DNA from: an uncultured virus (IMG/VR IMGVR_UViG_3300047381_001220)
Taxonomy: Duplodnaviria; Heunggongvirae; Uroviricota; Caudoviricetes
Virus record (IMG/VR): IMGVR_UViG_3300047381_001220
Strand: one strand, 5' to 3'
DNA length: 64,000 nt
Shown here: in pieces, positions 1 through 63,910 of the stretch
Numbering within the stretch: position 1 is the first letter of the stretch
Layout of the letters: every line of letters begins with the position of its first letter
Made by a program: the position numbers and the translations under genes
The notes under the pieces: generated by a model
Database searches by the model: none
Told to the model about the DNA's origin: nothing
What the model saw: only the letters and a program-made list of their open reading frames with translations

Positions 1-246
1 ATGGAAAATAAAAGGATGCCAAACCAACTAGATTTGCCTGATTATATGAATACAAAAACTTGGTATTATTGTGGTAAAGCATATTCAGTAAGTTATGATT
101 TTGCAAAATATATCTCCACAACAGTTTCATCACAAAAAATAGTTGAAGAGCATTCAATTAAAAATGATGAAAATTATCATGAATTTGCAGTCGAGGATTA
201 TATGATCGGTAGAATATTTGAAAAATATATCAAAACAAAAAAATAG
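1..246 (+). CDS. Probable C-terminal part of a GT31-like galactosyltransferase (likely truncated by window edge)
   Basis: YYCGKAYSVS...VEDYMIG resembles the GT31 GxxY.hS and ED motifs. Confidence 0.5.
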   Translation: MENKRMPNQLDLPDYMNTKTWYYCGKAYSVSYDFAKYISTTVSSQKIVEEHSIKNDENYHEFAVEDYMIGRIFEKYIKTKK

Positions 247-257
247 GTTATATCAAA

Positions 258-1262
258 TTGCAATATATAATAACAGAACGTGATGTTGGACTTGCAAGTT
301 TATTATTTCAAGTTATTAACGCATTAAATAGATGCGAGAAAGAAGAACTTGGAACACCTATTGTTTACTTCAAAAATCAATGTGTCTACTATAATCCCGA
401 TGGTCATCAAAACAAAGACAATGTTTGGGAATATTATTTTCGTCCTGTAAATGAAACTGCTGATACATTGATGATTTCTGATAAAAACAAATCGGAAATA
501 GAAAATGCGTATCAAAACACAGAACCAAAGAAATTAAATAATAGTCGTTTCGTCAAATTAAGTGACGGAAACAAAATGTGTTGTCATTACGGAGATAGAA
601 AAATGGGACACACAATGATTGTTCCACCACATTTAATTCCCGAAGTTTACGAAGATGGTCATCGTGAAAAGGCAAATGCAATCATCAACAAATACTTTAA
701 ACTCAGAATGTATCTAAATGATAAAATCCATAACTTTTTTGCAGAAAATTTAGCAGACGCAAACAAAGTTCTTGGTGTTCATATTCGTGGAACAGATGCA
801 CTTGTAAATAAAGCAGAGAGATGGAGAAAGAAATTCGACATTCAAAATTACATAGATTGTATAAAATTATTTACAGAAAAATATAAAGACGAAGGTAAGG
901 TATTTGTAGCAAGTGATGATGCGAAGTTGTTTAATATTGTTAAAAACGAATTTGATGATCTAATTGTTGATTATGATACATTTCGCCAAGAAGAAGACGA
1001 TGTAGGTAAAAGTGGTAATACTACAAAAGGAGATGCAATGATGCCTACCTATTTATGTGATGATGGAGCAAAAGCATCCCAAAATGGAGAAGATGCAATT
1101 GCTGAAATGTATTTACTAAGCAAGTGTGATTATTTGCTTCACAACGCAAGTGGATTTGCTCATGTTGCTTTGCTAATAAATTCGGAAATAAATCACATGG
1201 ATAGTCAACGTCCGGGTGGTCAAATTTTGTTAAATAATTTTAAGGAGATGATAAATGGATAA
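258..1262 (+). CDS. NodZ/GT23-like fucosyltransferase
   Basis: GVHIRGTD, VFVASDD, YLLSKCDYLLHNASGF; TTG start. Confidence 0.7.
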   Translation: MQYIITERDVGLASLLFQVINALNRCEKEELGTPIVYFKNQCVYYNPDGHQNKDNVWEYYFRPVNETADTLMISDKNKSEIENAYQNTEPKKLNNSRFVKLSDGNKMCCHYGDRKMGHTMIVPPHLIPEVYEDGHREKANAIINKYFKLRMYLNDKIHNFFAENLADANKVLGVHIRGTDALVNKAERWRKKFDIQNYIDCIKLFTEKYKDEGKVFVASDDAKLFNIVKNEFDDLIVDYDTFRQEEDDVGKSGNTTKGDAMMPTYLCDDGAKASQNGEDAIAEMYLLSKCDYLLHNASGFAHVALLINSEINHMDSQRPGGQILLNNFKEMING

Positions 1263-2055
1263 TTTTAATATTGAGTCTTTTTTGAGTGAATATAAAAATA
1301 AAAAAATAATATTAGTATGTAATTCAGGAAACGCAGGAGATGCTTTAATTGCCAAAGGAACTTTTGATCTTTTTGAAAAAATAGGAATTGAATATGAATT
1401 TGGTTCTTGGACGTCTAAATACAATAATTCAGAACTATTTTACGGTGGTGGAGGAAATCTGTCCGGTATGTATCCACATTGTAGAAAATTTATTAAAAAT
1501 AATTTTAGAAATAACAATATAGTTGTATTACCTCACACAGTACGTGGAGTGTGGAAAATACTTAGAAAGTTTACAAAAAGAATCAAGATTATTTGTAGGG
1601 AAGAAGTTTCGTATAATCATGTATATAATACAATAAAAAATAAAAATAATGCAATGATTTCGGATGATATGGCATTTCACTGTAATATACCAACTAAATA
1701 TAAGAATATAATCGGAAAAGGTCATGTAAACTGTTTTAGAAAAGCAGGTGAATGTGAATCCCCAAAAAATATTAATTTACCAAATGATAATATTGATTTA
1801 TCTTTAACTTGTGGTGGTGGAGATATGGACTCACACTCGTTTGTAAATGAAATTTTTGAAAATGTAATGCAAGAATTATCAAAGTATAAAACCATCAGCA
1901 CTAATCGTTTACACATGGCAATTGGAGGTGCATTGCTTGGAAAACAAGTCAATTTTTATTCAAACAATTATTATAAGTGTAAAGCCGTGTATGAGTATTC
2001 TTTAAAAAAGTATTCAAATGTAAAGTGGTGTGGAGATTACAATTATGAAAATTGA
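1255..2055 (+). CDS. Polysaccharide pyruvyl transferase family protein
   Basis: GNAGDALI, YGGGGNL, CREEVSY, TNRLHMAIGGALLG. Confidence 0.8.
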   Translation: MDNFNIESFLSEYKNKKIILVCNSGNAGDALIAKGTFDLFEKIGIEYEFGSWTSKYNNSELFYGGGGNLSGMYPHCRKFIKNNFRNNNIVVLPHTVRGVWKILRKFTKRIKIICREEVSYNHVYNTIKNKNNAMISDDMAFHCNIPTKYKNIIGKGHVNCFRKAGECESPKNINLPNDNIDLSLTCGGGDMDSHSFVNEIFENVMQELSKYKTISTNRLHMAIGGALLGKQVNFYSNNYYKCKAVYEYSLKKYSNVKWCGDYNYEN

Positions 2056-2803
2056 CGTAATCATAGGACATTCAAACACACACGATTCCCGTGATAGGAA
2101 TTTGAAATTTATTGTTGCACGATATCAAAAATTGCTTCCAAACGCAAAAATAACAATCGTTGAGCAAAACACCGAAACAGACCTATCTGAATTAAGTGTT
2201 AATCATATACTCAGAAAAACACCTAATCCATTTGATTACAGTCGTGGGTATGGATTTAACGAAGGAGCAAAGATAACTGACGGTGATTATATGATATTCG
2301 CAGATAATGACATTTTATTACACGAAGACTTGTTGAACAACTTTGAAGAACTTGTGAGTGGATATGATTTTTTTGTTCCTTCGCAAAAATTTCTTAACAT
2401 TTCACGTGACGGAACAAAGAAAGTAATTGCAGGTGAAAACTTAGATAAATCGTGGTTGGGTAGAGATAGACCGAGAGTGGCTGCAAATGGTGCAGGGGGA
2501 GTCTGTATTATGTCTAGGAAAGGTTTTTATGAAGTATATGGATGGGAACCGTCAATTGGGTCTTGGTGTCCTGAAGACGAATTAATGCGAAGTAAAGTGG
2601 ATACATTTAGTTTGAAAATTGGAAGATCACCTTACGATATGTATCATCTTGATCACGATACGAAAGCACATCGTAAACTTGCAAGACTAAACGACAAAAA
2701 GCAATGGAAAGAAATGGTAGAAAGAATATCAGTATTCAAGCAAATGAACAAACAGCAACTTTCAGATCACTATGAAAAAATAGGAGAAGATCATTTTAGA
2801 TAA
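2045..2803 (+). CDS. GT2/GT7-C type glycosyltransferase
   Basis: FADNDI (DxD), GGVCIMSR..F..VYGWE...GSWCPED; ATG at 2045 preferred. Confidence 0.75.
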   Translation: MKIDVIIGHSNTHDSRDRNLKFIVARYQKLLPNAKITIVEQNTETDLSELSVNHILRKTPNPFDYSRGYGFNEGAKITDGDYMIFADNDILLHEDLLNNFEELVSGYDFFVPSQKFLNISRDGTKKVIAGENLDKSWLGRDRPRVAANGAGGVCIMSRKGFYEVYGWEPSIGSWCPEDELMRSKVDTFSLKIGRSPYDMYHLDHDTKAHRKLARLNDKKQWKEMVERISVFKQMNKQQLSDHYEKIGEDHFR

Positions 2804-3561
2804 TGAAAGTAAGAAATAAAATAACAAATACATATCCAATTGTATTTCATTTATCTGGTCTTTTTAAGTGGAATCGTCTAGGTCACAGTATACACAATAT
2901 GAGTAAAAAATTAAATCACAAATTTATAAAAATCAGAGAGGATTTAGATTTATGTTTTTTTAGTCATGGGTATAATAATAGAAGTATGGTTGAAGAATCA
3001 TTAAATCAGTTTGGATTGTCAATTGTAAATTTAAATGATTATATAAAGTTACCCGAATCAAATACTTTTAATGAGATAAAAGGTGCAAAATTGACTGCAC
3101 TCAGAGAATATTTAGATACATCAACAAAAAAATATATAATAGGTCAAGACGCAGGTGATGTATTTTTTATTAAACATCCAAATTTAGTTATAGAATTATT
3201 TGAAGAAAAATTTGATTGCGAGATGCTTCTAAACGGAGAAACTATAGTATTTCCACGTGTTGCAACTAACATTTACAAAAGATTAGATACTCAATTAATA
3301 TATAAGGATAAAGGTAAAAAGTTTAAATTTTTAAACTCGGGATTATTTGTTGCTAAAGTAAATTTTCTTAAAACGATAATAGACGAGTTAATTGCTACAC
3401 CATATATTGGTGATGCAAAGGATCAGGGTCAGTTTCAGCAAATATACGAAAAATATTATCCAAAAATACAGGTTGATGTAGATTGTGAGATATTTCAAAC
3501 CACCGTATTTAGGAAAGAAGATCGTGGAAACGATCATAAATTTTTAAAAATAGAGAAATGA
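2803..3561 (+). CDS. PLOD (procollagen lysyl hydroxylase) glycosyltransferase-domain-like protein, apparently circularly permuted
   Basis: QDAGDV, FLNSGLFVA, KDQ, IQVDVDCEIFQT; N-terminal RNKITNTYPIVFH. Confidence 0.65.
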   Translation: MKVRNKITNTYPIVFHLSGLFKWNRLGHSIHNMSKKLNHKFIKIREDLDLCFFSHGYNNRSMVEESLNQFGLSIVNLNDYIKLPESNTFNEIKGAKLTALREYLDTSTKKYIIGQDAGDVFFIKHPNLVIELFEEKFDCEMLLNGETIVFPRVATNIYKRLDTQLIYKDKGKKFKFLNSGLFVAKVNFLKTIIDELIATPYIGDAKDQGQFQQIYEKYYPKIQVDVDCEIFQTTVFRKEDRGNDHKFLKIEK

Positions 3562-4409
3562 ACTACATAAACATACATTTGAAAGGACTTCTCGCAAACC
3601 AAATGTTTTGCGTTTCTGCTTTGTTTGCATATGCTTGGAAACACAACCTAACACCAATTATTAAAAGCAATCAAATATCTCGCAATCACGACAAGGGTAA
3701 AGATTCATTGTTGAAGGTGTTTCCAAACATACCGTTCAACGATGAATTAGATTTTGAGATCGAGGAATTTTTGGAAGAACCAAAGTCGTTGGGATTCCGT
3801 TATCAGGAGATACCATTTTATCCAAACAAAAATGTTCAAATGCGTGGATTTCGCCAAAGTGAAAAATATTTTGTGGAATACAAAAAAGAAATTCAAAAAA
3901 TGTTTGCACCTAAAACTGAAGAACTGCAATACCTTGAAAACAAGTATTCTGATATATTAAAAAACAGTGTTTCACTTCACATTCGCAAGGGTCGTGATAA
4001 TGCCGATACTTATAGTTCTGCTTATTATTGTTTATACGAGGATTTAAACACTTACTATCCAAATGCACTTCGCAAAATTTTAGAAATGAACAAAAAAATT
4101 GATAACATCGTAATATTCTCAGATGCAGTTGATTGGGTAGAAGAAAATCTTGATCTATCTGAGTTTGATTCAAATGTAACTTTTGTTCGTGGGGAGAAGG
4201 ATTACATGGATATTCATTTAATGAGTATGTGTAAGTATAACATCATTGCAAACTCCACATTTAGTTGGTGGGGTGCATGGTTGAATCGCAACGAGGATAA
4301 AGTGGTGATTGCACCAACAGAATGGCACCCGTTGCATAAGAAACGAAAGTTTAGTGATGAAGACATAATTTGTGAAGATTGGATTCGTGTGGAAGTAACT
4401 GATGATTAG
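3558..4409 (+). CDS. Alpha-1,2-fucosyltransferase (GT11)
   Basis: GLLANQMF, SLHIRKG, IIANSTFSWWGAWL, VIAP. Confidence 0.85.
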   Translation: MNYINIHLKGLLANQMFCVSALFAYAWKHNLTPIIKSNQISRNHDKGKDSLLKVFPNIPFNDELDFEIEEFLEEPKSLGFRYQEIPFYPNKNVQMRGFRQSEKYFVEYKKEIQKMFAPKTEELQYLENKYSDILKNSVSLHIRKGRDNADTYSSAYYCLYEDLNTYYPNALRKILEMNKKIDNIVIFSDAVDWVEENLDLSEFDSNVTFVRGEKDYMDIHLMSMCKYNIIANSTFSWWGAWLNRNEDKVVIAPTEWHPLHKKRKFSDEDIICEDWIRVEVTDD

Positions 4410-5004
4410 TCATGCACATAAATTTATTTTTATTCATATTCCAAAAACCGGTGGGACGAGTATTGAAAAAGTTTTTAAAAAACAAATTAAAAATAATCGT
4501 AAACATTTAACATTTTTTCAGTATGAGAATGAGTTAAAATCAGAAATTGAGAAATATTTTATATTTTCTGTAATCAGAAATCCGTGGGATAGACTTGTTT
4601 CGTATTGGAAATATAGACAAGGTAAAATACACGCACCAATTGACGGAAAAATGAATATATTTGATGACTGGTTAAAATTCATATCATCACTAAATTTAGA
4701 TGATTTACATGGAAAAACTGAAAAGAGTAATATTCCTGATTTTAGAATGGGACTAGATTCGCAATTCAATTCTCTAATAAACAAACAAAATAAAATAAAT
4801 GTAAATTTAGTTAGATTTGAAAATTTACAAAACGACTTTAACACAATCTGTGATAAAATTGGAATAAAACGTCATCATCTTCCACATAAAAACAAAAGTA
4901 GACACAAACACTATACTGAATACTACAACGAAGAAACAAAACAAATTGTTGCTGAAAAATATGCAAAGGATATTAAATATTTTGATTACAAGTTTGGTTC
5001 ATAG
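4402..5004 (+). CDS. Sulfotransferase (Sulfotransfer_2 / carbohydrate sulfotransferase-like)
   Basis: FIHIPKTGGTS (5'-PSB loop), RNPWDRLVS (3'-PB), RFENLQ. Confidence 0.85.
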   Translation: MISHAHKFIFIHIPKTGGTSIEKVFKKQIKNNRKHLTFFQYENELKSEIEKYFIFSVIRNPWDRLVSYWKYRQGKIHAPIDGKMNIFDDWLKFISSLNLDDLHGKTEKSNIPDFRMGLDSQFNSLINKQNKINVNLVRFENLQNDFNTICDKIGIKRHHLPHKNKSRHKHYTEYYNEETKQIVAEKYAKDIKYFDYKFGS

Positions 5005-5020
5005 AAAATCACTCGGTTAG

Positions 5021-5028
5021 ATATTTAT
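5021..5028 (+). promoter_or_regulatory. ATATTTAT putative phage promoter element
   Basis: Recurrent intergenic octamer; 4 nt before ATG 5033. Confidence 0.6.
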
Positions 5029-5032
5029 TATA

Positions 5033-5719
5033 ATGATGAAAAGTGATAATCCGTTTGGTTTTTTTGAAAAAATTTATTGTATAAACTTACAAACTAGAAC
5101 AGACCGTTGGGAAGAGGTTCAAGTTCAGTTTGATAAAATCGGTATACTTGACAGAGTTGAGAGACTTAATGCAGTTACAAAAGAAGAAGCAATTAAAATC
5201 TCAAAAGTAAAACTTAAAAAGTCGGGAGATATACAAGGTCAGGCGGCAGGATCACTTAGTCATTATACTTGCTTGAAAAAGTCAATAGAAAGCGGAGTCA
5301 AAAATTATTTAGTATTCGAGGATGATGTATATTTTGAAAATTATGATGCAAATGATTTGACACAATCAATAAAAGAATTGCCAACCGATTGGAAAATGTT
5401 CATGATGGGATATAATGGTTGGAATCGCAAGAGACTTGATAACTTTTCATCTAAATTAAATACGGCAGATGCGTTTGGATTGGCACACGCATATGCAGTT
5501 AATCATGTATTTTATGACCAGTACAAGTCAGAGTTTGAAAAAAGAGTAATCCGTGGGGAAACACATCGTGTGCGATGGTTTAAGAGAATTGAGTATTTTC
5601 TTTCACATACTTGTGATAATTTTCATTTAATGAAAAATAAGTTTGCATTTCAAGAAGTAGGGTATAGTGATATTGCTCAAATGGAAATAGATAGAGAAAC
5701 TGATACAATATTTGAATAA
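5033..5719 (+). CDS. GT25 glycosyltransferase
   Basis: YCINLQTRTDR, SLSH, LVFEDD, AHAYAV. Confidence 0.8.
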   Translation: MMKSDNPFGFFEKIYCINLQTRTDRWEEVQVQFDKIGILDRVERLNAVTKEEAIKISKVKLKKSGDIQGQAAGSLSHYTCLKKSIESGVKNYLVFEDDVYFENYDANDLTQSIKELPTDWKMFMMGYNGWNRKRLDNFSSKLNTADAFGLAHAYAVNHVFYDQYKSEFEKRVIRGETHRVRWFKRIEYFLSHTCDNFHLMKNKFAFQEVGYSDIAQMEIDRETDTIFE

Positions 5720-6455
5720 AAAAATGAGAGATGAACTATTAGATTTTTTTGATGGAATTTACTGCGTTAATTTAGATAGTAGAGTTGACAGATGGAATTC
5801 TGCACAAGAAGCATTTAAAAAACTCGGAATAGATGATAAAGTAGAACGATTCCGTGCTGTTGAATGCAGGAGTAATTTAAGTCGGCAGAAAATTGCAAAA
5901 GACTACTATAATATTGATTTACATGGAAATTTATTTCGTAGAAAATATCCAATTCACGGTGCAGTAGGATGTGCTACGAGTCATATTGAAATTTTAAAAA
6001 TTGCTAAAAGCAAAAATTTAAAAAATGTTTTAGTATTTGAAGATGATTTTAAAATTCTTGACGAATACGATAAAAATAGTTTATTGGTTTTAAATGAATT
6101 GCGAGATTTTAAAAAGTCGTGGGAATTATTATACTTAGGGTGGGAGTATGATGGAAACCCACGTGAAACAACGAAAAGTATAAGTAAAAGTAATCGGGGA
6201 TCTAAGAAATTTGGATTGCGAACAACCCGTGCAATTGCATATAATGAAAATGTATTTGACAAGATAATAAAATCAAATCCTTTTAATTCAAAAAAATATG
6301 GTCGTGGTGGTCATATTGATTTTTTTTATAGAAGAAATACATTTGCGAGAATTTTTACAAGACCTGCACTATTTGGAGTTCATAAAAATTCAATAGGATT
6401 GGGTGATATAGATTTATTAAAAAAATTAAACAAGAGAAATAAAAATGGAAAATGA
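5712..6455 (+). CDS. GT25 glycosyltransferase
   Basis: YCVNLDSRVDR, GCATSH, LVFEDD, LLYLG; start may be ATG 5724. Confidence 0.8.
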   Translation: MNKKMRDELLDFFDGIYCVNLDSRVDRWNSAQEAFKKLGIDDKVERFRAVECRSNLSRQKIAKDYYNIDLHGNLFRRKYPIHGAVGCATSHIEILKIAKSKNLKNVLVFEDDFKILDEYDKNSLLVLNELRDFKKSWELLYLGWEYDGNPRETTKSISKSNRGSKKFGLRTTRAIAYNENVFDKIIKSNPFNSKKYGRGGHIDFFYRRNTFARIFTRPALFGVHKNSIGLGDIDLLKKLNKRNKNGK

Positions 6456-7071
6456 AAAAGTATTATTTTTGGGAGATTCAATAACAAGGCATTATTATCC
6501 GTATGCTGAAATTTTATTGAGTAAGAATGAAATTGAAGCCGTTGTACCTGATAAGTGGGTTTCTTGTCAATGGAAGCAAGTGAGAATGATTGGTCAACTT
6601 TTACAGGGTAAACGAAAGTACGGAGGTCGTAAAGTAAAAGCAGAAACTGTACATTTTAATTTTGGTTTACATAGTATTAAATTGCCACACAAAGGACATG
6701 ATCCCGAGCATCAACGTGCTACGCAAGAAGATATTGATACCTATGAAAAAGAATTAATTGAAGAAATTGAATATCTTAGAAAATTGAATATTAAAAATAT
6801 ATTATTTTCAAATACAACTCCAAGTCCAAAAAATCATGGAGTTCGCAAGGATGCCGATGTTGTAATTCTAAATGAAATTGCAGACAGAATTATGAGAAAG
6901 TATGATGTTCCATTGAATGATCTATATGGGTTTGTAAAATCTCAAGAAGATTATCCAAGATTGTATATGCACCCACGTGCAGAAAATAATTGCCATTTTG
7001 CTGAACATGGTCGTGAGTTACTTGGAAACCAAGTTGGTGAATTTGTTCTTAAGCATATGAAGTCATCGTGA
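6445..7071 (+). CDS. SGNH/GDSL hydrolase (possible O-acetyl esterase or transferase)
   Basis: FLGDSIT, HFNFGLH, NCHF. Confidence 0.75.
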   Translation: MENEKVLFLGDSITRHYYPYAEILLSKNEIEAVVPDKWVSCQWKQVRMIGQLLQGKRKYGGRKVKAETVHFNFGLHSIKLPHKGHDPEHQRATQEDIDTYEKELIEEIEYLRKLNIKNILFSNTTPSPKNHGVRKDADVVILNEIADRIMRKYDVPLNDLYGFVKSQEDYPRLYMHPRAENNCHFAEHGRELLGNQVGEFVLKHMKSS

Positions 7072-8865: not shown

Positions 8866-8880
8866 AAACTAATATTTATA
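8861..8880 (+). promoter_or_regulatory. Extended promoter-like element TATAAAAACTAATATTTATA
   Basis: Identical 20-mer at 63906-63925 and 18-mer match at 51380-51397; ATATTTAT 5 nt before GTG 8885. Confidence 0.6.
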
Positions 8881-8884
8881 ATAT

Positions 8885-9757: not shown

Positions 9758-9787
9758 GTTAGTTTTTATATTATTTAATATTTATCT

Positions 9788-10189: not shown

Positions 10190-10190
10190 A

Positions 10191-12052: not shown

Positions 12053-12106
12053 AATACAATGCAGTTTTAGACCACAACTTTGGAGAATATTAGGAGGTAA
12101 TTCAGA

Positions 12107-12703: not shown

Positions 12704-12704
12704 A

Positions 12705-46119: not shown

Positions 46120-46120
46120 A

Positions 46121-50036: not shown

Positions 50037-50037
50037 G

Positions 50038-58261: not shown

Positions 58262-59497
58262 ATGGAATACGAAACAAAACTTCCCGAATACAATAAAAAC
58301 GAAGAACTCGGATCACTTAGTCAAAGAATTGATTGGGGATTAAGACAACTTAATGTTCCTTCTACTTGGAGTGTAACTAAAGGTGAAGGAATTACTGCAA
58401 TGGTAATTGACACAGGGCATCCTGTGCATCCTGATATAGGAGATAATGCAATTAAAGGAAAGAACTGCATTTCTGGTGAACCAATAGAAGATGAAAATGG
58501 ACACCAACTTCATTGCACAGGTATTATTAATGCAAAAGACAATCAAACTGGTATGGTAGGAGTTGCACCTGAAGCAAAATGTATTTCAGTAAAAGCATTA
58601 GCAAAAAACGGAAGTGGAACTTATTACGGATTAGCAGAAGCATTAGATTATGCAATTGAAATGAAACCTGATGTAGTAAGCATGAGTTTAGGAGGACCTG
58701 CTCCGTCATCAGTTTTGCACGACAGAATCAAAACATTATATGAAATGAATATACCTGTTGTGTGTGCGGCTGGAAACTCAGGAGACGGAGGAGTTAATTA
58801 TCCGGCTGCATTTGACGAAACAATTGCAGTTGCGGCTTATGATCGTTGGGGAAAAATTGCTAACTTTTCTTCTAAAGGAGAAAAAGTAGAATGGGCTGCA
58901 CCTGGTGTAAACATTTATAGTACCTTTCTTAACAACGGATATGCAAGTTTAAGTGGAACATCAATGGCTTGTCCATTTATTACAGGTGTTATTTGTTTGA
59001 TGCTTGCAAAACATAAAAAACAAGAAGCAGAAACAGGTAAGAATGATTGCAAAACGGTTGCACAAATACGTGAGCATTTATTAAAATACACAAAAGATAA
59101 AGGTGAAGTAGGAAAAGACAACTCTTGGGGATATGGTGTAATAGATGTGGAAAAGATGATTAAAGACGGAGAGGAAGTATCAGAACCTACTCCAACACCA
59201 ACAAATACTGCAACTAATACACCCACCAAAACACCAACACCTACTAATACCAAAACTCCAACCAAAACTCATACCAAAACACAAACTCCGACAAATACTC
59301 CTGATAAAGTAAAACCAAAACCAAAAAAGAATAAACTACCTTTGATTATTGGTGGAGTAGTTGTGGTGATTGGGATTATTGGAGCAGTAATTTATTTTGC
59401 GACAAAACAAGATGAAGTAATTATTCCGAATCCTCCATATATAAATGAACATGGAGAAATTGATTGGGATAAAAAATATGAACAGGAAATAAAATAA
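58262..59497 (+). CDS. Subtilisin-like (S8) serine protease with Pro/Thr linker and C-terminal membrane anchor
   Basis: VIDTG, NGHQLHCTG, AAGNSG, SGTSMACP; PT/KT repeats; LPLIIGGVVVVIGIIGAVIYF. Confidence 0.9.
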   Translation: MEYETKLPEYNKNEELGSLSQRIDWGLRQLNVPSTWSVTKGEGITAMVIDTGHPVHPDIGDNAIKGKNCISGEPIEDENGHQLHCTGIINAKDNQTGMVGVAPEAKCISVKALAKNGSGTYYGLAEALDYAIEMKPDVVSMSLGGPAPSSVLHDRIKTLYEMNIPVVCAAGNSGDGGVNYPAAFDETIAVAAYDRWGKIANFSSKGEKVEWAAPGVNIYSTFLNNGYASLSGTSMACPFITGVICLMLAKHKKQEAETGKNDCKTVAQIREHLLKYTKDKGEVGKDNSWGYGVIDVEKMIKDGEEVSEPTPTPTNTATNTPTKTPTPTNTKTPTKTHTKTQTPTNTPDKVKPKPKKNKLPLIIGGVVVVIGIIGAVIYFATKQDEVIIPNPPYINEHGEIDWDKKYEQEIK

Positions 59498-60093
59498 TGG
59501 CAGAGGACATCAACAAACGAGTAGAAGCATTTGAGGCCGCACTTGATTTACTTGAACAACAAGTAGATTGGCAAAAAGATCATTTTCAAGAATTGTTTGA
59601 AGCAGATGAAAAGAAAAATACCGAAATTCATATTAAGTATGCAGAATTATCATCAGTTGTTGAACTAATCAAAGAACAATTAAAGTGGCAAAAAGACTTT
59701 GTAAATAATTTTGTAAGACAAGATACTTCTCTTGATAAAAAAATGGCAGACCGTGTAAATGAAATGTCACGATTAGTAGGATTAATGGCAGACAAACTTG
59801 ATTTACAAAAAGATAAATTAGATTCATATATAAAAACTGGTGCGACTAAAAACAATAGCATGACGGATCGTTTGGGTGGTTTAAAAGACGACATTACGAA
59901 ATTAAAGTCTGTAAAAGATATTGATGCAAAAAGAGAAATTAACGATGTAAAAGGTTCAGTTCGTAAAATGAAAAATGTAAATAAATTTCATGGTGATTAC
60001 ATAAAAAAACTTGAACGTAAAATAGAAAATAAACAAAACGCAATTAAAAAACGATTTAAGCAAATAGAGAATAAAATAGATGAATCAAACTAA
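59497..60093 (+). CDS. Coiled-coil hypothetical protein
   Basis: Heptad-rich; internal repeats of L..Q..WQKD type. Confidence 0.55.
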   Translation: MAEDINKRVEAFEAALDLLEQQVDWQKDHFQELFEADEKKNTEIHIKYAELSSVVELIKEQLKWQKDFVNNFVRQDTSLDKKMADRVNEMSRLVGLMADKLDLQKDKLDSYIKTGATKNNSMTDRLGGLKDDITKLKSVKDIDAKREINDVKGSVRKMKNVNKFHGDYIKKLERKIENKQNAIKKRFKQIENKIDESN

Positions 60094-60658
60094 CAAATTT
60101 ATATCAACTGATTATTTAAATCAATCTGCGTTTGAAGCAAAGTATAATAGAAAAGCATATGCTTTTTGGTTGGTTGGTAATAGTGGAAGTGGAAAAAGCA
60201 CTCTTGCAAAAGAAGTAGAAAAAAAACTTTTTGATGTCAATATTAAGGTAAAATGTTTAGACGGAGATAATATGAGAAACACTATCAATTCAGATTTAGA
60301 TTTATCAATTGAATCTAGAAATGAAAATATAAGAAGAAGTGCGGAAATTTCCAAAATGTTTTTAGAAACTGGCATTAGTACATTAAATTGTTTTATTTCA
60401 CCACTTGAAATATATCGTGAGCAAGCAAAGAAAATAATTGGAAATCGTTTTCGTTTAATTTATATAAAAGCATCTAATGATGAAGTAAAAAAACGAGATG
60501 TTAAAGGATTTTACAAAAATGATGCAGATGCAATGAATAAGTCACTTAATATGTTTGAAAAACCAATTAATCCAGACTTGATAATTGATACCACAAATAA
60601 ATCAATAAAATATTCCGCAAACATTTTGTATAATTTTGTATTAAATCAACCAATCTAA
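60080..60658 (+). CDS. cysC: Adenylyl-sulfate (APS) kinase
   Basis: GNSGSGKST, LDGDNMR, R.ENIRR, FISP, RDVKGFY, PDL.IDT. Confidence 0.88.
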   Translation: MNQTNKFISTDYLNQSAFEAKYNRKAYAFWLVGNSGSGKSTLAKEVEKKLFDVNIKVKCLDGDNMRNTINSDLDLSIESRNENIRRSAEISKMFLETGISTLNCFISPLEIYREQAKKIIGNRFRLIYIKASNDEVKKRDVKGFYKNDADAMNKSLNMFEKPINPDLIIDTTNKSIKYSANILYNFVLNQPI

Positions 60659-60666
60659 ATATTTAT
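60659..60666 (+). promoter_or_regulatory. ATATTTAT putative phage promoter element
   Basis: 7 nt before ATG 60674. Confidence 0.55.
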
Positions 60667-60673
60667 AAATGAG

Positions 60674-61579
60674 ATGAAAAAATGTAACTTAACACACCTA
60701 GAGGAACTTGAAGCAGAAAGCATTCATGTATTAAGAGAAACGGCTGCTCAGTTTTCAAGTTCAACATTGCTTTTTAGTGGTGGTAAAGATAGTTTAGTCT
60801 GTCTTCACCTAATTGCAAAAGCATTTTATCCTGCCAACTCACCCTTTGTTGCTCTGCACGTTGATACAGGTCACAATTTTCCGGAGGTAATGGAATTTCG
60901 TGACAAAGTGTTAAAGCAATACAATATGAAGTTATTTGATCGCAAAGTAGAAGATGCGATTAAAGAGGGACTTGTTCATGATGAAACTGGTGTTGGGGCA
61001 ACACGCAATGAACTTCAAATACCTGTGCTTCTTGATGCAATTGAACATCATAAATTTGATGTTTGTATTGGTGGAGCAAGACGTGACGAAGAAAAAGCAA
61101 GAGCAAAAGAACGTTTCTTTTCTCATCGTGATGATTTCGGTCAATGGGACCCAAAAAATCAACGACCAGAAATTTGGGATTTATACAACGGAAAGAAAAA
61201 CCAAGGAGAGCATTTCCGAGTGTTTCCAATAAGTAATTGGACAGAACTTGATGTTTGGACTTATTTAAAAATGGAAAACATTCCCTTGCCATCACTTTAC
61301 TTTTCACATAAAAGAAAATGTTATCAACGTGACGGAGTTTGGTATGGTCACGCAGATTATGTGCAGTTAAAGGAAGGTGAACGTTTAAAAGAAAAAGTAG
61401 TTCGTTTTCGTTCAATCGGAGATGTTACTTGCACAGGTGCTTGTGAAAGTAAAGCAGATAACATTGATGATATTATTGCGGAAGTAGCAAGTGCTACTAC
61501 AACAGAAAGAGGAACAAGAGGAGACGATAAGAAATCTGAAACAAGTATGGAAGACCGCAAGCAACAAGGATATTTCTAA
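60674..61579 (+). CDS. cysD: Sulfate adenylyltransferase subunit 2
   Basis: LEAESIH, FSGGKDS, HVDTG, GGARRDEEKARAKER, WDPKNQRPE, RVFPISNWTE, MEDRK..GYF. Confidence 0.97.
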   Translation: MKKCNLTHLEELEAESIHVLRETAAQFSSSTLLFSGGKDSLVCLHLIAKAFYPANSPFVALHVDTGHNFPEVMEFRDKVLKQYNMKLFDRKVEDAIKEGLVHDETGVGATRNELQIPVLLDAIEHHKFDVCIGGARRDEEKARAKERFFSHRDDFGQWDPKNQRPEIWDLYNGKKNQGEHFRVFPISNWTELDVWTYLKMENIPLPSLYFSHKRKCYQRDGVWYGHADYVQLKEGERLKEKVVRFRSIGDVTCTGACESKADNIDDIIAEVASATTTERGTRGDDKKSETSMEDRKQQGYF

Positions 61580-61580
61580 A

Positions 61581-62906
61581 ATGGGTGATAATAAAAATAA
61601 TAAAAAGAAGTCTGATAAAACAAAATCAGATAATAAACCAAACGTAAATAAATTACAGAATAATGAACTTCTTCGTCTTTCTACTGCTGGTAGTGTAGAT
61701 GATGGTAAAAGCACTTTAATTGGTCGTTTGCTTTATGATACAAAAAGTGTTATGAAAGATCAATACGAAGCAGTTCGTGCTACAAGTAAAAAGAAAGGTG
61801 AAGATGATGTAAATCTTGCGTATCTTACAGATGGTCTTAAAAGTGAACGTGAACAAGGAATTACAATTGATGTAGCATATCGTTATTTTAATACTGCAAA
61901 TCGTAAGTTCATTATTTCAGATACACCTGGTCATGTTCAATATACTCGTAACATGGTAACGGGTGCAAGTAAAAGTAATGTCGCAATTATTTTAGTGGAT
62001 GCACGAAACGGAATTTCAGAACAAACACGAAGACATTCGTTTATTGCAAGTTTATTGAAAATACCTCATGTTATTTATGCAGTAAATAAAATGGACTTGA
62101 TAGATTATGATCAAGAAAAGTTTAATAAAATAAAACAAGATTTAAAGAAATTTAGTGCAAAACTTCGTTGCAATGATATTCGTTTTATTCCTATATCAGC
62201 ATTGAAAGGTGATAATGTTACAACCAAATCACAAAAAACAAAATGGTACAAAGGTGGTCATTTGCTTGGTATGCTTGAAAACATTGAAATCTTCTCAGAC
62301 AACAATTTAGTGGACGCACGATTTGATATTCAAACTGTGATTCGTCCTCATAGTGATGAATGGCATGACTTTCGTGGATATGCAGGTAAAATCATAAGTG
62401 GTCGTTTTGAGAAAGGACAAAAAGTTCAAGTGCTTCCTAGTGGATTTGAAACTCGTATCAAAGATATGCGTGTATATAAAGATTTAGTGGATGAAGCCTG
62501 CACTCCTGCAAGTATTGTAATGCAACTTGAAGATGATATAGATGCAGGACGAGGTGATATGATTGCACGGATTGATAATCTACCAAAGGTATCTCAGAAA
62601 TTTGATGCAATGATTTGTTGGATGTCTGACGATGTTATGCTTCCTCGTAAAAAATATTTACTTAAACACGGAAGTAACGAAGTAACTGCAATGATTACAA
62701 AAAAAGTTTATACATTAGATGTCAATACTTTCAGTAAAGCAGAAGATCAAAGTTTGCAAATCGGTCTGAATGACATAGCAAGAATAAGTATTAAAACAAG
62801 TAAACCATTAAACTTTGATGACTTTGAAAGCAATCGTGCGAATGGAAGTTTCATTTTAATTGATACACAAACAAATGAAACGATTGCGGCCGGAATGATT
62901 AAGTGA
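61581..62906 (+). CDS. cysN: Sulfate adenylyltransferase subunit 1 (GTPase)
   Basis: TAGSVDDGKSTLIGRLL, EREQGITIDVAYRYF, DTPGHVQYTRNM, NKMD; ATG 61581. Confidence 0.97.
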   Translation: MGDNKNNKKKSDKTKSDNKPNVNKLQNNELLRLSTAGSVDDGKSTLIGRLLYDTKSVMKDQYEAVRATSKKKGEDDVNLAYLTDGLKSEREQGITIDVAYRYFNTANRKFIISDTPGHVQYTRNMVTGASKSNVAIILVDARNGISEQTRRHSFIASLLKIPHVIYAVNKMDLIDYDQEKFNKIKQDLKKFSAKLRCNDIRFIPISALKGDNVTTKSQKTKWYKGGHLLGMLENIEIFSDNNLVDARFDIQTVIRPHSDEWHDFRGYAGKIISGRFEKGQKVQVLPSGFETRIKDMRVYKDLVDEACTPASIVMQLEDDIDAGRGDMIARIDNLPKVSQKFDAMICWMSDDVMLPRKKYLLKHGSNEVTAMITKKVYTLDVNTFSKAEDQSLQIGLNDIARISIKTSKPLNFDDFESNRANGSFILIDTQTNETIAAGMIK

Positions 62907-63910
62907 ATACTATTATAGTTACGGGAGGTTTGGGATACATCGGTAGTCATACCGTTGTAGAATTGCTAAACGAAGGATATGAAGTAGTTGTAATTGATAA
63001 TTTGTCAAATTCTTCGGAGGATGTTATTGATGGTATTCGTGCAATCACGAAAAAAGGTGTCCACTTTTTTAATGTGGACATTCGTGATTATGATGAATTA
63101 GAAAAAGCATTTGGTTATTATCAACAAGACATAAAAGCAGTTGTGCATTTCGCTGCGTGTAAAAGTGTTGGTGAAAGTATGAAAGAACCAAGCAAATACT
63201 ACGACAACAATGTTGCGGGTACAAACAATTTGCTTATGGTGATGAAATACTATAACATCAAGAATTTGATATTCAGTAGCAGTTGTACCGTTTATGGTCA
63301 AGCAGACGAACTTCCTATTACAGAGAAAACTCCGCAAAAACCTGCGGAAAGTGTTTATGGTCGTACCAAACAAATATGTGAACAAATGATAACTGATTTT
63401 CATATTGAACACGATTTTAATTCAACATTGCTTCGTTATTTTAATCCAATAGGATCACACGAAAGTGCATTAATTGGAGAACTACCAAACGGAGTACCTG
63501 ATAATTTAATTCCGTATGTTACGCAAACTGCAATTGGTAAACGAAAAGAACTTACTGTATTTGGAACAGATTATGATACACCAGATGGAACTTGTATTCG
63601 TGATTATATCCACGTAGTAGATTTAGCAAAAGCACACGTTAAAGCAATTGTGGTATGCAACGAGAAAAAATTTAATGCCATTCCAATAAATTTGGGAACA
63701 GGTAATGGATACTCAGTAAAAGAGGTTCTTGATACGTTTCAAAAAGAAAATGATATAGAACTTAACATAAAATACGGAAAACGAAGAGAAGGTGACATTA
63801 CAAGTGCATATGCAGATGCTTCTCTTGCATACGAATTATTACAATGGAAGGCAGAATTAGGTTTAATTGAAATGGTGAAATCTGCTTGGGAGTGGGAGCA
63901 AAAATTATAA
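62903..63910 (+). CDS. galE: UDP-glucose 4-epimerase
   Basis: TGGLGYIGSHT, HFAA.KSVGES, YGRTK, LRYFNPIG, PDGTCIRDYIHV, NLGTG. Confidence 0.95.
   Translation: MNTIIVTGGLGYIGSHTVVELLNEGYEVVVIDNLSNSSEDVIDGIRAITKKGVHFFNVDIRDYDELEKAFGYYQQDIKAVVHFAACKSVGESMKEPSKYYDNNVAGTNNLLMVMKYYNIKNLIFSSSCTVYGQADELPITEKTPQKPAESVYGRTKQICEQMITDFHIEHDFNSTLLRYFNPIGSHESALIGELPNGVPDNLIPYVTQTAIGKRKELTVFGTDYDTPDGTCIRDYIHVVDLAKAHVKAIVVCNEKKFNAIPINLGTGNGYSVKEVLDTFQKENDIELNIKYGKRREGDITSAYADASLAYELLQWKAELGLIEMVKSAWEWEQKL

What the first reader, a model, noticed from the sequence alone, without database searches (positions are those of the whole stretch)
1..63910. Phage-encoded glycan factory with its own activated-donor supply and no export machinery
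Seen: about 30 GT-like genes, 13 sulfotransferases, pyruvyl/methyl/acetyl transferases, nucleotide-sugar enzymes, metK and cysCDN, interleaved with phage genes (resolvase, dNMP kinase, S74 tail fibre). I see no Wzx, Wzy, ABC exporter or polyprenyl-phosphate priming transferase, and no obvious membrane anchors on the GTs. Known: bacterial capsule and O-antigen loci need those membrane components, whereas Mimivirus glycosylates its own fibrils with virus-encoded enzymes. Inference: the product is built in the cytoplasm on a phage substrate, most simply a heavily decorated glycan coat on the virion, at a scale unusual for a bacteriophage.
Basis: partly seen in the sequence, partly recalled or inferred. 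Interest (0 to 1): 0.92.

Follow-up and report, generated by a model that had tools for sequence, protein, structure and literature searches.

The report
Giant phage sulfated-glycan gene island
An uncultured marine virus of bacteria carries at least 64 kb of soluble enzymes that make activated sugars and activated sulfate and should assemble a heavily sulfated sugar chain inside the infected cell, with no way of its own to export it; what the chain is attached to is still unknown.

Summary
The window is one 75-ORF, single-strand, 98.8%-coding block at about 30% GC.

- **Content:** 13 sulfotransferases; 14 glycosyltransferases (GTs) above Pfam cut-offs, up to 24 with weaker, fold and look-alike support; 2 pyruvyl-, 2 methyl- and 1 acetyl-transferase.
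- **Donor supply:** RmlA, RmlB, GalE, Glf, MetK and a complete PAPS (activated sulfate) route, CysD/CysN/CysC.
- **Interleaved phage genes:** a resolvase, a dNMP kinase and a 1663-aa collagen/S74 fibre.
- **No export:** no priming transferase, flippase, polymerase or ABC exporter. Only 1 of 75 proteins has a membrane-type segment. A flavobacterial locus with the same enzyme families does carry these genes.
- **Relatives:** seven complete 195–239 kb phage genomes lack them too. Five of the seven carry 2–10 sulfotransferase matches, and five carry an APS-kinase-like gene.

Phage origin is indirect but good: no capsid or terminase lies in the window, and its own genome could not be fetched. The virion-coat reading is plausible but untested; remodelling of the host surface through host carriers is the main rival.

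Known precedents are cyanophage "LPS clusters" of unknown function and giant-virus fibril-glycan clusters with a sulfotransferase. This scan noted eight smaller islands of this kind on other DNA; this is the largest, and it uses canonical CysDNC.

The parts
1..7991 (+). Left block; the island runs off the window's 5' end. NodZ/FUT8-like GT 258-1262; pyruvyl transferase 1255-2055; weak GT2 2030-2803; PLOD-GT-like 2803-3561; GT11 3558-4409; Sulfotransfer_2 4402-5004; GT25 5033-5719 and 5712-6455; weak SGNH/GDSL 6445-7071; weak FUT8/NodZ-like 7068-7991.
   Evidence: Pfam. The first ORF (1-246) is a fragment with no family.
8011..15098 (+). Nucleotide-sugar and tailoring block. RmlA 8011-8865; unassigned 8885-9757; GNAT 9788-10189; paralogous GT-A-like leads 10092-11171 and 11171-12052; Sulfotransfer_4 12107-12703; short (208 aa) DegT-type aminotransferase 12705-13331; GT6-like GT-A fold 13407-14126; SDR epimerase 14154-15098.
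   Evidence: Pfam; NCBIfam; Atlas; AlphaFold2 and Foldseek; paralogy.
15095..28382 (+). GT2 15095-15790; GT-B fold 15787-16731; unassigned 16713-17549 and 17546-18271; GT6-like paralog 18312-19124; methyltransferase 19121-19753; GT (phrog_4447) 19834-20622; UDP-galactopyranose mutase 20643-21635; TylF-like methyltransferase 21596-22267; 94.6%-identical unassigned pair 22188-23030 and 23204-23929; RmlD-like 24177-25061; pyruvyl transferase 25066-26172; RmlB 26151-27143; weak GT2 27165-28382.
28379..42414 (+). Sulfotransferase-rich core. Sulfotransfer_2 at 28379, 29006, 29645, 30949, 31567, 32988 and 35234; Sulfotransfer_1 37679-38419. Interleaved with GT-A-like lead 30206-30943, Nucleotid_trans GT 32258-32998, GT11 33596-34441 and 38328-39266, GT61 36597-37682, DUF6734+GT2 40750-42414. 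Unassigned: 34428, 35791, 39208, 40081.
   Evidence: Pfam; alignment A1 with invariant RNP..S and a near-invariant Lys in the P-loop-like motif; Atlas.
42426..51377 (+). Mixed block. Unassigned 42426-42851; dNMP kinase 42885-43445; LOG/SLOG-like 43483-44247; Sulfotransfer_2 44247-44915; MetK 44962-46119; QueF-like 46049-46567; Sulfotransfer_2 46605-47252; NodZ/O-FucT-like GT 47242-48162; GT2 (607 aa) 48213-50036; Sulfotransfer_2 50038-50634; GT2/GT7C 50631-51377.
   Evidence: Pfam; PHROGs; NCBIfam.
51415..51954 (+). Phage PDDEXK_15 / RusA-like Holliday-junction resolvase.
   Evidence: Pfam 2.5e-28; phrog_244. It is 70% identical to the copy beside the sulfotransferase array of phage contig G005.
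52245..58199 (+). Two small unassigned ORFs (52245-52721, 52747-53184) and the 1663-aa fibre 53208-58199. The fibre has six G-X-Y runs with 8 Lys in the Y position, a LamG-like domain and a C-terminal Peptidase_S74 chaperone.
   Evidence: Pfam; PHROGs tail-fibre families; tblastn to Cellulophaga, cyanophage and SPO1-type structural proteins; repeat scan.
58262..60093 (+). S8 subtilase with a Pro/Thr-rich linker (303-351) and the window's only membrane-type segment (356-384); a 198-aa coiled-coil ORF follows.
   Evidence: It is 57-75% identical to proteases on eight IMG/VR loci.
60080..63910 (+). PAPS and UDP-galactose supply: CysC 60080-60658, CysD 60674-61579, CysN 61491-62906, GalE 62903-63910.
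   Evidence: Pfam; NCBIfam. pN/pS is 0.04-0.13 against the 94.7%-identical contig L001.

Best explanation
The window is part of the variable accessory region of a large, uncultured, marine tailed phage. It encodes a self-supplied, cytoplasmic assembly line for one or more complex, heavily sulfated heteroglycans.

Shown by sequence:
- CysD/CysN make APS from sulfate, and CysC turns it into PAPS.
- Thirteen sulfotransferases that keep the PAPS-binding motifs would use that PAPS.
- MetK supplies SAM for two methyltransferases.
- RmlA/RmlB (with an RmlD-like reductase), GalE and Glf supply dTDP-6-deoxyhexose, UDP-galactose and UDP-galactofuranose.
- At least 18, and probably 24 or more, soluble GTs of many families build the chain. 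These include GT2, GT11, GT25, GT61, NodZ/FUT8-like, GT6-like and GT-B types.
- Two pyruvyl transferases and a GNAT acetyltransferase tailor it.

Inferred:
- The many old, diverged sulfotransferase and GT subfamilies each add one specific linkage or sulfate. The product would then be intricate rather than a simple repeat.
- The phage brings no priming or export step, so the chain is finished in the cytoplasm.
- My best guess for the acceptor is a phage particle protein (about 0.45 within this reading). Candidates are fibres such as the collagen-like 1663-aa protein encoded inside the island, or capsid decoration. Giant viruses glycosylate their fibrils in this way, and some mycobacteriophages their capsids and tails.

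A corollary: phage cysC/cysDN in large phages feed phage sulfotransferases rather than host sulfur assimilation.
For: Content and motifs.

Solubility and missing export:
- 1 of 75 proteins has a membrane-type segment.
- 0 of 73 ORFs hit a priming or export family.
- The Psychroserpens locus L121 has the same Sulfotransfer_2, Sulfotransfer_1, pyruvyl transferase, Nucleotid_trans and GT2 families. It also shows Bac_transf, ABC2_membrane, ABC_tran+Wzt_C and a Wzc-like kinase.

Phage affiliation:
- Resolvase 70% identical to G005. G005 holds a terminase, 8 Sulfotransfer_2 genes plus a Stf0-like one, the S8 protease and an APS-kinase-like gene.
- dNMP kinase found in 7 of 8 records of that terminase lineage and in 0 of 2 T4-like ones.
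- Protease 57-75% identical on 8 IMG/VR loci.
- Fibre domains match phage structural proteins.
- Atlas look-alike clusters are 86-100% viral.
- Homologs 94-95% identical to two island ORFs lie on a 178,040-bp contig.

Generality:
- 476 or more Sulfotransfer_2 stretches in IMG/VR, with up to 8 per 20 kb.
- 5 of 7 complete 195-239 kb phage genomes have 2-10 Sulfotransfer_2 matches. 5 of 7 have an APS-kinase-like gene; 4 have both.
- 0 of 7 have Bac_transf, Glycos_transf_4, Polysacc_synt or Wzy_C. 0 of 7 have ABC2_membrane above the cut-off; there is one sub-threshold match in G002. The control genomes ring for each family.

Functionality:
- pN/pS is 0.087 over the protease, ORF198, cysC/D/N and galE against a 94.7%-identical relative.
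- 9 of 13 sulfotransferases are closer to a copy in another phage island than to any copy in the window.
- The DNA recurs in 15 seawater runs of 12 studies.

Analogy for the acceptor:
- Megavirinae fibril-glycan clusters of 6-33 genes combine NDP-sugar enzymes, GTs, pyruvyl-, methyl- and acetyl-transferases. In Moumouvirus australiensis and Cotonvirus they also include an adenylyl-sulfate kinase and a sulfotransferase (PMC10117803, passages read).
- The fold of 15787-16731 is closest to SenB, then to Gtf3 and GtfC. The latter extend O-glycans on serine-rich proteins in the cytoplasm.
Against: - No capsid, portal or terminase gene is in the window or in the 6.4 kb downstream. The window's own genome is not held. 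No close relative was found in IMG/VR.
- The nearest phage lineage shares only a handful of genes at 32-75% identity. It does not use the window's upstream motif. The backbone lineage is therefore unknown.
- Nothing in the sequence identifies the acceptor. No protein-specific GT was demonstrated and no lysyl hydroxylase was found. The fibre has no Ser/Thr-rich tract.
- Cellular homologs of the same sulfotransferase family sit in surface-polysaccharide and LPS-core loci. This favours a lipid-linked glycan as the ancestral substrate.
- Three of the 17 Pfam GT hits are below the curated cut-offs. Nine island ORFs have no assignment.
- The selection test covers only the right-hand 5.6 kb, not the GT and sulfotransferase genes.
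- RNA-library contigs cover the fibre, cys and metK genes. DNA carry-over in those libraries cannot be excluded.
Confidence: 0.5

Rival explanations
1. Host-envelope remodelling. The phage enzymes work on a host lipid-linked intermediate (undecaprenyl-diphosphate primed by the host). The finished or altered chain leaves through the host's own ABC transporter or flippase. This changes the infected cell's capsule, O-antigen or LPS core, for example to block superinfection or to stop progeny from sticking to debris.
For: - In bona fide bacterial genomes the same Sulfotransfer_2 family sits in surface-glycan loci. Psychroserpens has Bac_transf and Wzm/Wzt; Thioalkalivibrio has GT9 heptosyltransferases.
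- In ABC-transporter-type pathways all glycosylation and tailoring is cytoplasmic and done by soluble or peripheral enzymes (established knowledge). The lack of membrane anchors therefore fits equally well.
- Cyanomyophage 'LPS gene clusters' are a long-known parallel (PMC3037559).
- GT25, GT11 and GT2 have many LPS/LOS members (Pfam descriptions).
Against: - Not one priming, flippase, polymerase, ligase or exporter gene in at least 64 kb here or in 7 complete phage genomes. The phage would depend entirely on host parts that must accept a foreign chain.
- Investing 64 kb or more in a cell that is about to lyse is hard to rationalise.
- GT4 enzymes, the staple of the bacterial loci examined, are absent from the window.
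- Fibre genes are embedded in the island.
Confidence: 0.3
2. Not a phage. The block is a bacterial exopolysaccharide or O-antigen region, or a giant-virus fragment, and a few phage-like genes lie in it by chance.
For: - No hallmark phage gene in the window.
- The sulfotransferase family occurs in 190 stretches of bacterial-collection genomes.
- cysDN is a typical bacterial gene set and is rare in isolated phages.
Against: - 75 genes on one strand with 98.8% coding and no tRNA or housekeeping gene.
- Phage-specific resolvase, dNMP kinase and S74 fibre, with best relatives on terminase-bearing phage contigs.
- Bacterial-collection loci mostly have a single copy of the sulfotransferase: 52 of 79 have one and the maximum is 4. 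Viral loci have up to 8.
- The closest 'bacterial' hits are low-GC contigs in MAGs. One of them carries the phage terminase.
- No export genes, unlike the bacterial control.
- Overlapping prokaryote-style genes and CysDN argue against a eukaryotic virus.
Confidence: 0.05
3. The genes are largely non-functional cargo ('stuffer DNA' for headful packaging), or they serve DNA hypermodification rather than glycan building.
For: - The stuffer idea was raised for cyanophage LPS clusters (PMC3037559).
- A dNMP kinase, a QueF-like gene and a LOG-like gene lie inside the island.
- Phage GTs are known to decorate DNA (cited in PMC12619734).
- One aminotransferase is truncated, and one recent duplication scar is present.
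Against: - Intact frames throughout, conserved catalytic motifs, and pN/pS of 0.087 where it could be measured.
- Old sulfotransferase subfamilies are kept across phages.
- The DNA recurs in 12 studies.
- Thirteen sulfotransferases and pyruvyl transferases have no known role on DNA. Extra negative charge on packaged DNA would also be costly (inference).
Confidence: 0.05

Closest known systems
Megavirinae (Mimivirus, Moumouvirus australiensis, Cotonvirus, Tupanvirus) fibril-glycosylation gene clusters
   Same: - Virus-encoded clusters of 6-33 genes that combine NDP-sugar synthesis (4,6-dehydratase, aminotransferase, N-acetyltransferase), several GTs, a pyruvyl transferase and a methyltransferase.
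- In M. australiensis and Cotonvirus they also include an adenylyl-sulfate kinase plus a sulfotransferase.
- The glycans end up on virion fibrils, and the structural fibril gene lies in the cluster (PMC10117803, passages read).
   Different: - Eukaryotic giant viruses, not a tailed phage.
- One sulfotransferase there, against 13 here.
- No CysDN there.
- At most 33 genes there, against about 60 glycan-related ORFs here.
- No sequence relationship was tested. For the giant viruses the virion location of the glycan is experimentally shown; here it is not.
'LPS gene clusters' of T4-like cyanomyophages P-SSM2, S-SSM7 and S-SM2
   Same: - Large blocks of polysaccharide-type genes in marine myovirus genomes that account for most of the extra genome size.
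- Function unknown; 'functional or stuffer DNA' was left open (PMC3037559, passages read).
   Different: - No sulfotransferase array or PAPS pathway is mentioned in the passages read.
- My protein search of isolated phages found this sulfotransferase family only as single distant copies at 31.5% identity or less, mostly in Synechococcus phage ACG-2014f.
- The window's phage does not share the lineage-specific genes tested with T4-like records.
Mycobacteriophage virion glycosylation (Che8-type; Freeman et al. 2023)
   Same: Phage-encoded soluble GTs that glycosylate capsid and tail-tube proteins in the cytoplasm. Known to me from citations in PMC12619734 and the listing; the paper itself was not read.
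   Different: A few GTs per genome, no sulfation, no donor-supply genes, and a different host phylum.
Bacterial ABC-transporter-dependent sulfated/pyruvylated surface-polysaccharide loci (example found here: Psychroserpens mesophilus locus L121)
   Same: Same enzyme families: Sulfotransfer_2, Sulfotransfer_1, PS_pyruv_trans, Nucleotid_trans, GT2 and methyltransferases.
   Different: - The bacterial locus has a priming transferase, a Wzm/Wzt exporter, a Wzc-like kinase and GT4 enzymes. The window has none of these.
- One to two sulfotransferases there, against 13 here.

Membership tests
Bacterial capsule / O-antigen biosynthesis locus (Wzx/Wzy- or ABC-transporter-dependent) | Polyprenyl-phosphate priming transferase (Bac_transf PF02397 or Glycos_transf_4 PF00953) | tested here: not met
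   0 of 73 window ORFs. 0 of 7 complete related-type phage genomes. Found at once in the bacterial control L121.
Bacterial capsule / O-antigen biosynthesis locus (Wzx/Wzy- or ABC-transporter-dependent) | Export or polymerisation machinery (Wzx, Wzy, or Wzm/Wzt ABC-2 transporter) | tested here: not met
   No Polysacc_synt, Wzy_C, ABC2_membrane or ABC_tran hit in the window. 1 of 75 proteins has a membrane-type segment. 0 of 7 phage genomes are above the cut-off.
Bacterial capsule / O-antigen biosynthesis locus (Wzx/Wzy- or ABC-transporter-dependent) | GTs and NDP-sugar enzymes clustered together | tested here: met
Tailed bacteriophage genome | Major capsid, portal and large terminase genes on the same molecule | not testable with these tools
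   None in the window or in the 6.4 kb downstream. Relatives of individual genes lie on contigs with a terminase or Gp23.
Tailed bacteriophage genome | Phage-specific structural and DNA-handling genes | tested here: met
   S74/collagen tail fibre with 39 PHROG families, mostly tail; PDDEXK_15 resolvase; gp1-type dNMP kinase.
PAPS-dependent carbohydrate sulfotransferases (Pfam Sulfotransfer_1/2/4) | Family profile match above the curated cut-off | tested here: met
   13 of 13, at 39.5-79.4 bits against cut-offs of 22-22.8.
PAPS-dependent carbohydrate sulfotransferases (Pfam Sulfotransfer_1/2/4) | 5'-phosphosulfate loop with catalytic Lys, and 3'-phosphate motif (Arg...Ser). The motif names are recalled, not from a call. 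| tested here: met
   In alignment A1 of 11 paralogs: R72, N73, P74 and S80 are invariant; K15 is present in 90% or more. The closest solved chain is heparan sulfate 6-O-sulfotransferase, weakly (E 8.8e-4).
PAPS-dependent carbohydrate sulfotransferases (Pfam Sulfotransfer_1/2/4) | Sulfate transfer to a sugar acceptor | not testable with these tools
   Needs an enzyme assay.
Assimilatory sulfate activation (CysD/CysN ATP sulfurylase + CysC APS kinase) | All three proteins match equivalog or subfamily models | tested here: met
   CysD 430.9 bits (cut-off 195). CysN 540.2 bits (cut-off 336.1). CysC 137.0 bits against 138.7, so marginal.
Assimilatory sulfate activation (CysD/CysN ATP sulfurylase + CysC APS kinase) | Downstream reduction to sulfite and sulfide (CysH, CysIJ), as expected for an assimilation role | tested here: not met
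   The only PAPS_reduct-family ORF is CysD by NCBIfam. No CysH or CysIJ in the window. This favours PAPS as the end product.
Virus-encoded virion glycosylation (giant-virus fibril or chlorovirus capsid type; mycobacteriophage type) | Virus-encoded soluble GTs and sugar-nucleotide enzymes clustered, with structural genes nearby | tested here: met
   The fibre gene lies inside the island.
Virus-encoded virion glycosylation (giant-virus fibril or chlorovirus capsid type; mycobacteriophage type) | Glycan shown on a virion protein | not testable with these tools
   Needs purified particles and glycoproteomics.

The most novel reading that the evidence does not exclude
A widespread group of large marine phages dresses its particles in a virus-built, highly sulfated, fucoidan- or glycosaminoglycan-like coat, made entirely in the bacterial cytoplasm with the phage's own PAPS, SAM and NDP-sugar supply. 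The coat would act as bait or camouflage. For example, it might engage the sulfated-polysaccharide-binding uptake proteins of algal-glycan-degrading hosts such as Flavobacteriia, or shield the particle from sticking to marine gels. If so, the 'sulfur-assimilation' cysC/cysDN genes reported in large phages are really glycan-sulfation genes, and bacteria-infecting viruses can make protein-linked sulfated glycans of near-eukaryotic complexity.
Probability: 0.2. Interest if true: 0.92.

Novelty: new variant of a known kind. Interest (0 to 1): 0.78.

Why it matters
**Sulfated glycans and phages.** Sulfated glycans are central to marine carbon cycling and to eukaryotic cell surfaces, but no phage has been shown to make one. 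My searches for papers joining sulfotransferase, jumbo phage and glycosyltransferase, or phage, sulfotransferases, PAPS and auxiliary metabolic genes, found none. One paper states that the role of phage sulfotransferases 'remains unclear' (PMC10580990).

**A testable explanation.** This locus is the fullest example so far of a self-supplied phage sulfation and glycosylation line. It offers an explanation for two loose ends. The first is why large phages carry cysC, which has been read as sulfur assimilation (PMC10914622). The second is what the big 'LPS clusters' of marine myoviruses are for (PMC3037559).

**A source of enzymes.** It is also a rich source of soluble, membrane-free carbohydrate sulfotransferases and GTs, including families with no Pfam model, for enzymology.

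Tried and rejected
**Finding the window's own genome or a close relative**
- No genome is held.
- Two exact 50-mers are absent from IMG/VR.
- One metagenome contig is 94.7% identical but adds only 6.4 kb.
- A peptide scan with ORF 15787 found nothing in IMG/VR.
- Megablast against isolated phages gave one irrelevant 84-bp hit.

**G001 as a relative**
- The 205-kb phage G001 was fetched in full. By my blastp it shares only the protease and three weak GT/sulfotransferase matches.
- Its dNMP kinase homolog was missed by my ORF filter and found later.
- The MYG1-like gene downstream of the window was not found in 10 phage records. Nothing rang, so this shows nothing.
- Portal_T4 rang nowhere, so that search is uninformative.

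**Profile-profile classification of unassigned ORFs**
- Abandoned. The local database of 6,771 ORFs gave 0-4 homologs for most of them.
- Relaxed Pfam (E <= 1), NCBIfam and PHROGs gave nothing credible for 19 of 20 unassigned ORFs. PHROGs assigned 19834.

**Collagen-glycosylation idea (GT25 + PLOD-GT-like + collagen-like fibre)**
- Kept only as a lead. The sole solved match of the GT25 is procollagen galactosyltransferase, but weakly (E about 1e-4).
- The PLOD-like and GT61 ORFs have no solved relative by sequence.
- No hydroxylase was seen.

**Late-promoter idea**
- TATAAATA gave 20 matches against 12.7 expected, with 3 of 100 shuffles reaching 20.
- This led instead to the coding-strand motif ATATTTATA. 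That motif precedes glycan, nucleotide and fibre genes alike, so it gives no timing inference. It is not used by G001, G003 or G005.

**RNA libraries**
- Contigs of three metatranscriptome runs cover the fibre, protease, cys, metK and dNMP kinase parts.
- The stretch 47.3-50.0 kb had almost no cover. This is no evidence of silence, and DNA carry-over is possible.

**Not run:** complex prediction, because I claim no specific binding pair.

Full report
**What is there**

The 64-kb window is a single run of 75 non-nested ORFs, all on the + strand. 34 of 74 junctions overlap or abut, and 98.8% of the sequence is coding. GC is 28-36% and there is no tRNA. I scanned all 73 ORFs of 100 aa or more against Pfam.

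- **Sulfotransferases.** Thirteen ORFs are sulfotransferases, all above the curated cut-offs: eleven Sulfotransfer_2, one Sulfotransfer_1 and one Sulfotransfer_4.
- **Glycosyltransferases (GTs) by family search.** Seventeen ORFs hit a GT family. Fourteen are above the cut-off: NodZ/FUT8-like, GT11 x3, GT25 x2, PLOD-GT-like, GT2, GT61, Nucleotid_trans, DUF6734+GT2 and GT2/GT7C. Three are below it. PHROGs adds one more.
- **Tailoring enzymes.** Two pyruvyl transferases, two methyltransferases and a GNAT acetyltransferase are present.
- **Donor supply.** NCBIfam places RmlA, RmlB, GalE, CysD and CysN above equivalog or subfamily cut-offs. CysC is at the cut-off (137.0 against 138.7 bits). Glf is strong. 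MetK has all three domains.
- **Interleaved phage genes.** These are a PDDEXK_15/RusA-like resolvase, a gp1-type dNMP kinase and a 1663-aa fibre. The fibre has six collagen-like runs, a LamG-like domain and an S74 chaperone. An S8 protease follows it.

**The unassigned ORFs**

Nineteen ORFs had no credible family in Pfam (even at E <= 1), NCBIfam or PHROGs. I folded two of them from alignments of database homologs. Both models have pLDDT 93-94 and pTM 0.91.

- 13407-14126 is a GT-A fold. Its nearest solved structures are GT6 histo-blood-group-type transferases (Foldseek E 3e-5, TM about 0.5). 18312-19124 is its 38.7%-identical paralog.
- 15787-16731 is a GT-B fold. Its best matches are SenB, then Gtf3 and GtfC, the streptococcal enzymes that extend O-glycans on serine-rich adhesins in the cytoplasm (E 2e-9, TM 0.65).
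- ESM-Atlas look-alikes of 30206-30943 and 10092-11171 are viral clusters (86-100% Viruses) with GT-A-type leads. These are leads only.

This makes 21 GT-like ORFs with support, 3 with leads and 9 still blank. 'About 30' is therefore plausible but not shown.

**No export, no anchors**

No ORF hits Bac_transf, Glycos_transf_4, Polysacc_synt, Wzy_C, ABC2_membrane or ABC_tran. Only the S8 protease has a hydrophobic segment, that is 1 of 75 proteins.

The absence is meaningful because of a control. The isolate Psychroserpens mesophilus carries the same Sulfotransfer_2 family in a locus with Sulfotransfer_1, pyruvyl transferase, Nucleotid_trans, GT2 and methyltransferases. In that locus Pfam immediately finds Bac_transf, ABC2_membrane, ABC_tran+Wzt_C and a Wzc-like kinase.

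**Is it a phage?**

The window holds no capsid, portal or terminase. No genome is held for it, and isolated phages have nothing close. A metagenome contig 94.7% identical over 10 kb adds 6.4 kb downstream. That stretch holds an 1818-aa DUF285 protein and a MYG1-like gene. The evidence for phage origin is therefore indirect.

- The resolvase is 70% identical to one on IMG/VR contig G005. On that contig it lies beside 8 Sulfotransfer_2 genes and a Stf0-like one, 7 Pfam GT-family ORFs, the S8 protease (60%) and an APS-kinase-like gene. All are on a contig with a terminase and a structural module.
- That terminase defines an uncultured lineage of about 200 kb. G001, G003, G005 and G007-G010 share it at 63-76% identity. 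A 210-kb contig binned into a MAG shares it at 64%.
- The window's dNMP kinase has homologs in 7 of 8 records of that lineage and in 0 of 2 T4-like ones.
- The window is not a close member, however. G001 shares only a handful of genes, and the window's upstream motif is not used there.
- Homologs 94-95% identical to two island ORFs lie on a 178,040-bp contig that I could not fetch.
- The DNA recurs in seawater metagenomes. 15 runs from 12 studies hold half or more of the sampled words; two of these runs may be the source of this DNA.

I put phage origin at about 0.9.

**How general is it?**

There are up to 8 genes per 20-kb locus, often next to Glf, RmlB, RmlD-like and epimerase genes.
- Of seven complete (CheckV 100%) phage genomes of 195-239 kb, five have 2-10 Sulfotransfer_2 matches. 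Five have an APS-kinase-like gene, and four have both.
- None of the seven has any of the five priming or export families above the cut-off. The control genomes ring for each family.
- At least two backbones carry such islands: the lineage above and T4-like phages with Gp23.
- Among 50,697 isolated-phage records the family appears only as distant single copies at 31.5% identity or less. These are mostly in Synechococcus phage ACG-2014f, next to a GT25. A near-full-length cysN is in 3 records.
- In bacterial-collection loci the family is mostly single-copy: 52 of 79 loci have one copy, and the maximum is 4.
- This scan's earlier notes list eight similar islands of 2.4-19 kb in seven other genomes. 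They are unchecked AI notes and not independent support. They do show that the kind was seen before on other DNA. The present window is the largest and has the most sulfotransferases.

**Function**

- The sulfotransferase paralogs keep an invariant RNP..S motif and a near-invariant Lys in a PKTGGTS-like loop. I recall these as the 3'-phosphate and 5'-phosphosulfate PAPS-binding motifs.
- Nine of 13 are closer to a copy in another phage's island than to any copy in the window. They are old subfamilies, presumably with different specificities.
- CysD/N/C without CysH or CysIJ makes PAPS the end product.
- Against the 94.7%-identical relative, the protease, ORF198, cysC, cysD, cysN and galE show pN/pS of 0.087. 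These genes are under purifying selection. The GT and sulfotransferase genes could not be tested this way.
- RNA-library contigs cover the fibre, protease, cys, metK and dNMP kinase genes. DNA carry-over cannot be excluded.

**The acceptor**

This is the open point, and the sequence does not settle it.

For a virion target:
- Fibre genes are embedded in the island.
- The closest known systems are the Megavirinae fibril-glycan clusters. These combine the same enzyme classes and, in two viruses, an adenylyl-sulfate kinase and a sulfotransferase (PMC10117803, passages read).
- Mycobacteriophage virion glycosylation is a further precedent (listing and citations only).
- A Gtf3/GtfC-like fold is present.
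- Several GT families here have eukaryotic members that modify proteins: O-FucT, GT61, GT25 and PLOD-GT.

For a host-envelope target:
- Cellular homologs work in surface-polysaccharide loci.
- ABC-transporter-type pathways finish and tailor the chain in the cytoplasm with soluble enzymes. A phage could therefore borrow host priming and export.
- Cyanophage 'LPS clusters' are a long-known parallel of unknown function (PMC3037559).

I rate the virion reading about 0.45 and host remodelling about 0.3 within the overall picture.

**Literature**

- Searches joining sulfotransferase, jumbo phage and glycosyltransferase found 0 papers. So did a search joining phage, sulfotransferases, PAPS, auxiliary metabolic and marine.
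- The COBRA paper reads phage cysC as assimilatory sulfate reduction and notes that cysC phages have larger genomes (PMC10914622, passages).
- An OM43-phage paper says the function of phage sulfotransferases is unclear (PMC10580990, passages).
- The moraphage paper lists four core GTs and reviews DNA, serotype and virion roles (PMC12619734, passages).
- I did not see supplements of any of these. They may list sulfotransferases among phage auxiliary genes.

**Verdict**

This is a new variant of a known kind, virus-encoded glycan factories. It is notable for being in a bacteriophage, for its size, for the 13 sulfotransferases and for a complete canonical PAPS pathway.

Noticed in passing
window, upstream of 21 starts (e.g. 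7999-8006, 8873-8880, 18301-18308, 24166-24173, 32977-32984, 40069-40076, 42871-42878, 46591-46598, 52732-52739, 60660-60667, 63918-63925): The coding-strand motif (A)ATATTTAT(A) lies within 25 nt upstream of 21 of 75 starts, against 1.2 +/- 1.1 (max 5) at random positions. It usually sits 3-7 nt before the start codon of genes that follow a gap. SD-like cores precede only 15 of 75 starts (random 8.6 +/- 2.9). This may be a promoter for leaderless or short-leader transcripts, or a non-SD initiation signal. It is not enriched in G001, G003 or G005.
   Followed up: partly
window 22188-23929: Two unassigned ORFs (22188-23030 and 23204-23929) are 94.6% identical. A 65-aa fragment lies between them (23005-23202) that is 87.5% identical to an SDR epimerase of the window. 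This looks like a recent duplication or recombination scar.
   Followed up: no
window 12705-13331: A DegT/PseC-type aminotransferase of only 208 aa. It matches the family profile in two separate stretches and is about 150 aa short, so it is probably a deletion derivative.
   Followed up: no
window 42426-46567: A nucleotide-type mini-cluster inside the glycan island: dNMP kinase, a LOG/SLOG-like protein, MetK and a QueF-II-like preQ1 synthase (86.7 bits against a cut-off of 86.9). This hints at a 7-deazaguanine or other DNA-modification side function. Homologs of QueF (58%) and LOG (52%) lie together in T4-like record G006.
   Followed up: partly
window 58262-59497: An S8 subtilase with no signal peptide, a mucin-like (PT)n linker (303-351) and a single C-terminal membrane segment (356-384). 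Its catalytic domain is 57-75% identical on eight IMG/VR loci, among them records of both phage backbones, often near the sulfation genes.
   Followed up: partly
G001, G005-G008 and G010 (e.g. L032:3130-3957, minus strand): The ~200-kb phages carry a 270-292-aa protein instead of CysC/CysDN. It has an APS-kinase-like N-terminal half (profile positions 5-91 only) and a weak cytidylyltransferase-like C-terminal part.
   Followed up: partly
L120/L188 (contig C4 of G011) and L109: Low-GC contigs filed in bacterial MAGs (Cellvibrionales, 210,818 bp; Thermodesulfobacteriota, 49,716 bp) look like mis-binned phage DNA. The first carries the jumbo-phage terminase (64% identical, read through one stop) and a split dNMP kinase.
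   Followed up: partly
L001:10113-15569: Directly downstream of the window's galE lies an 1818-aa protein with a DUF285 (BspA-like repeat) region and no PHROG family. It may be a second adhesin or fibre gene flanking the island.
   Followed up: no
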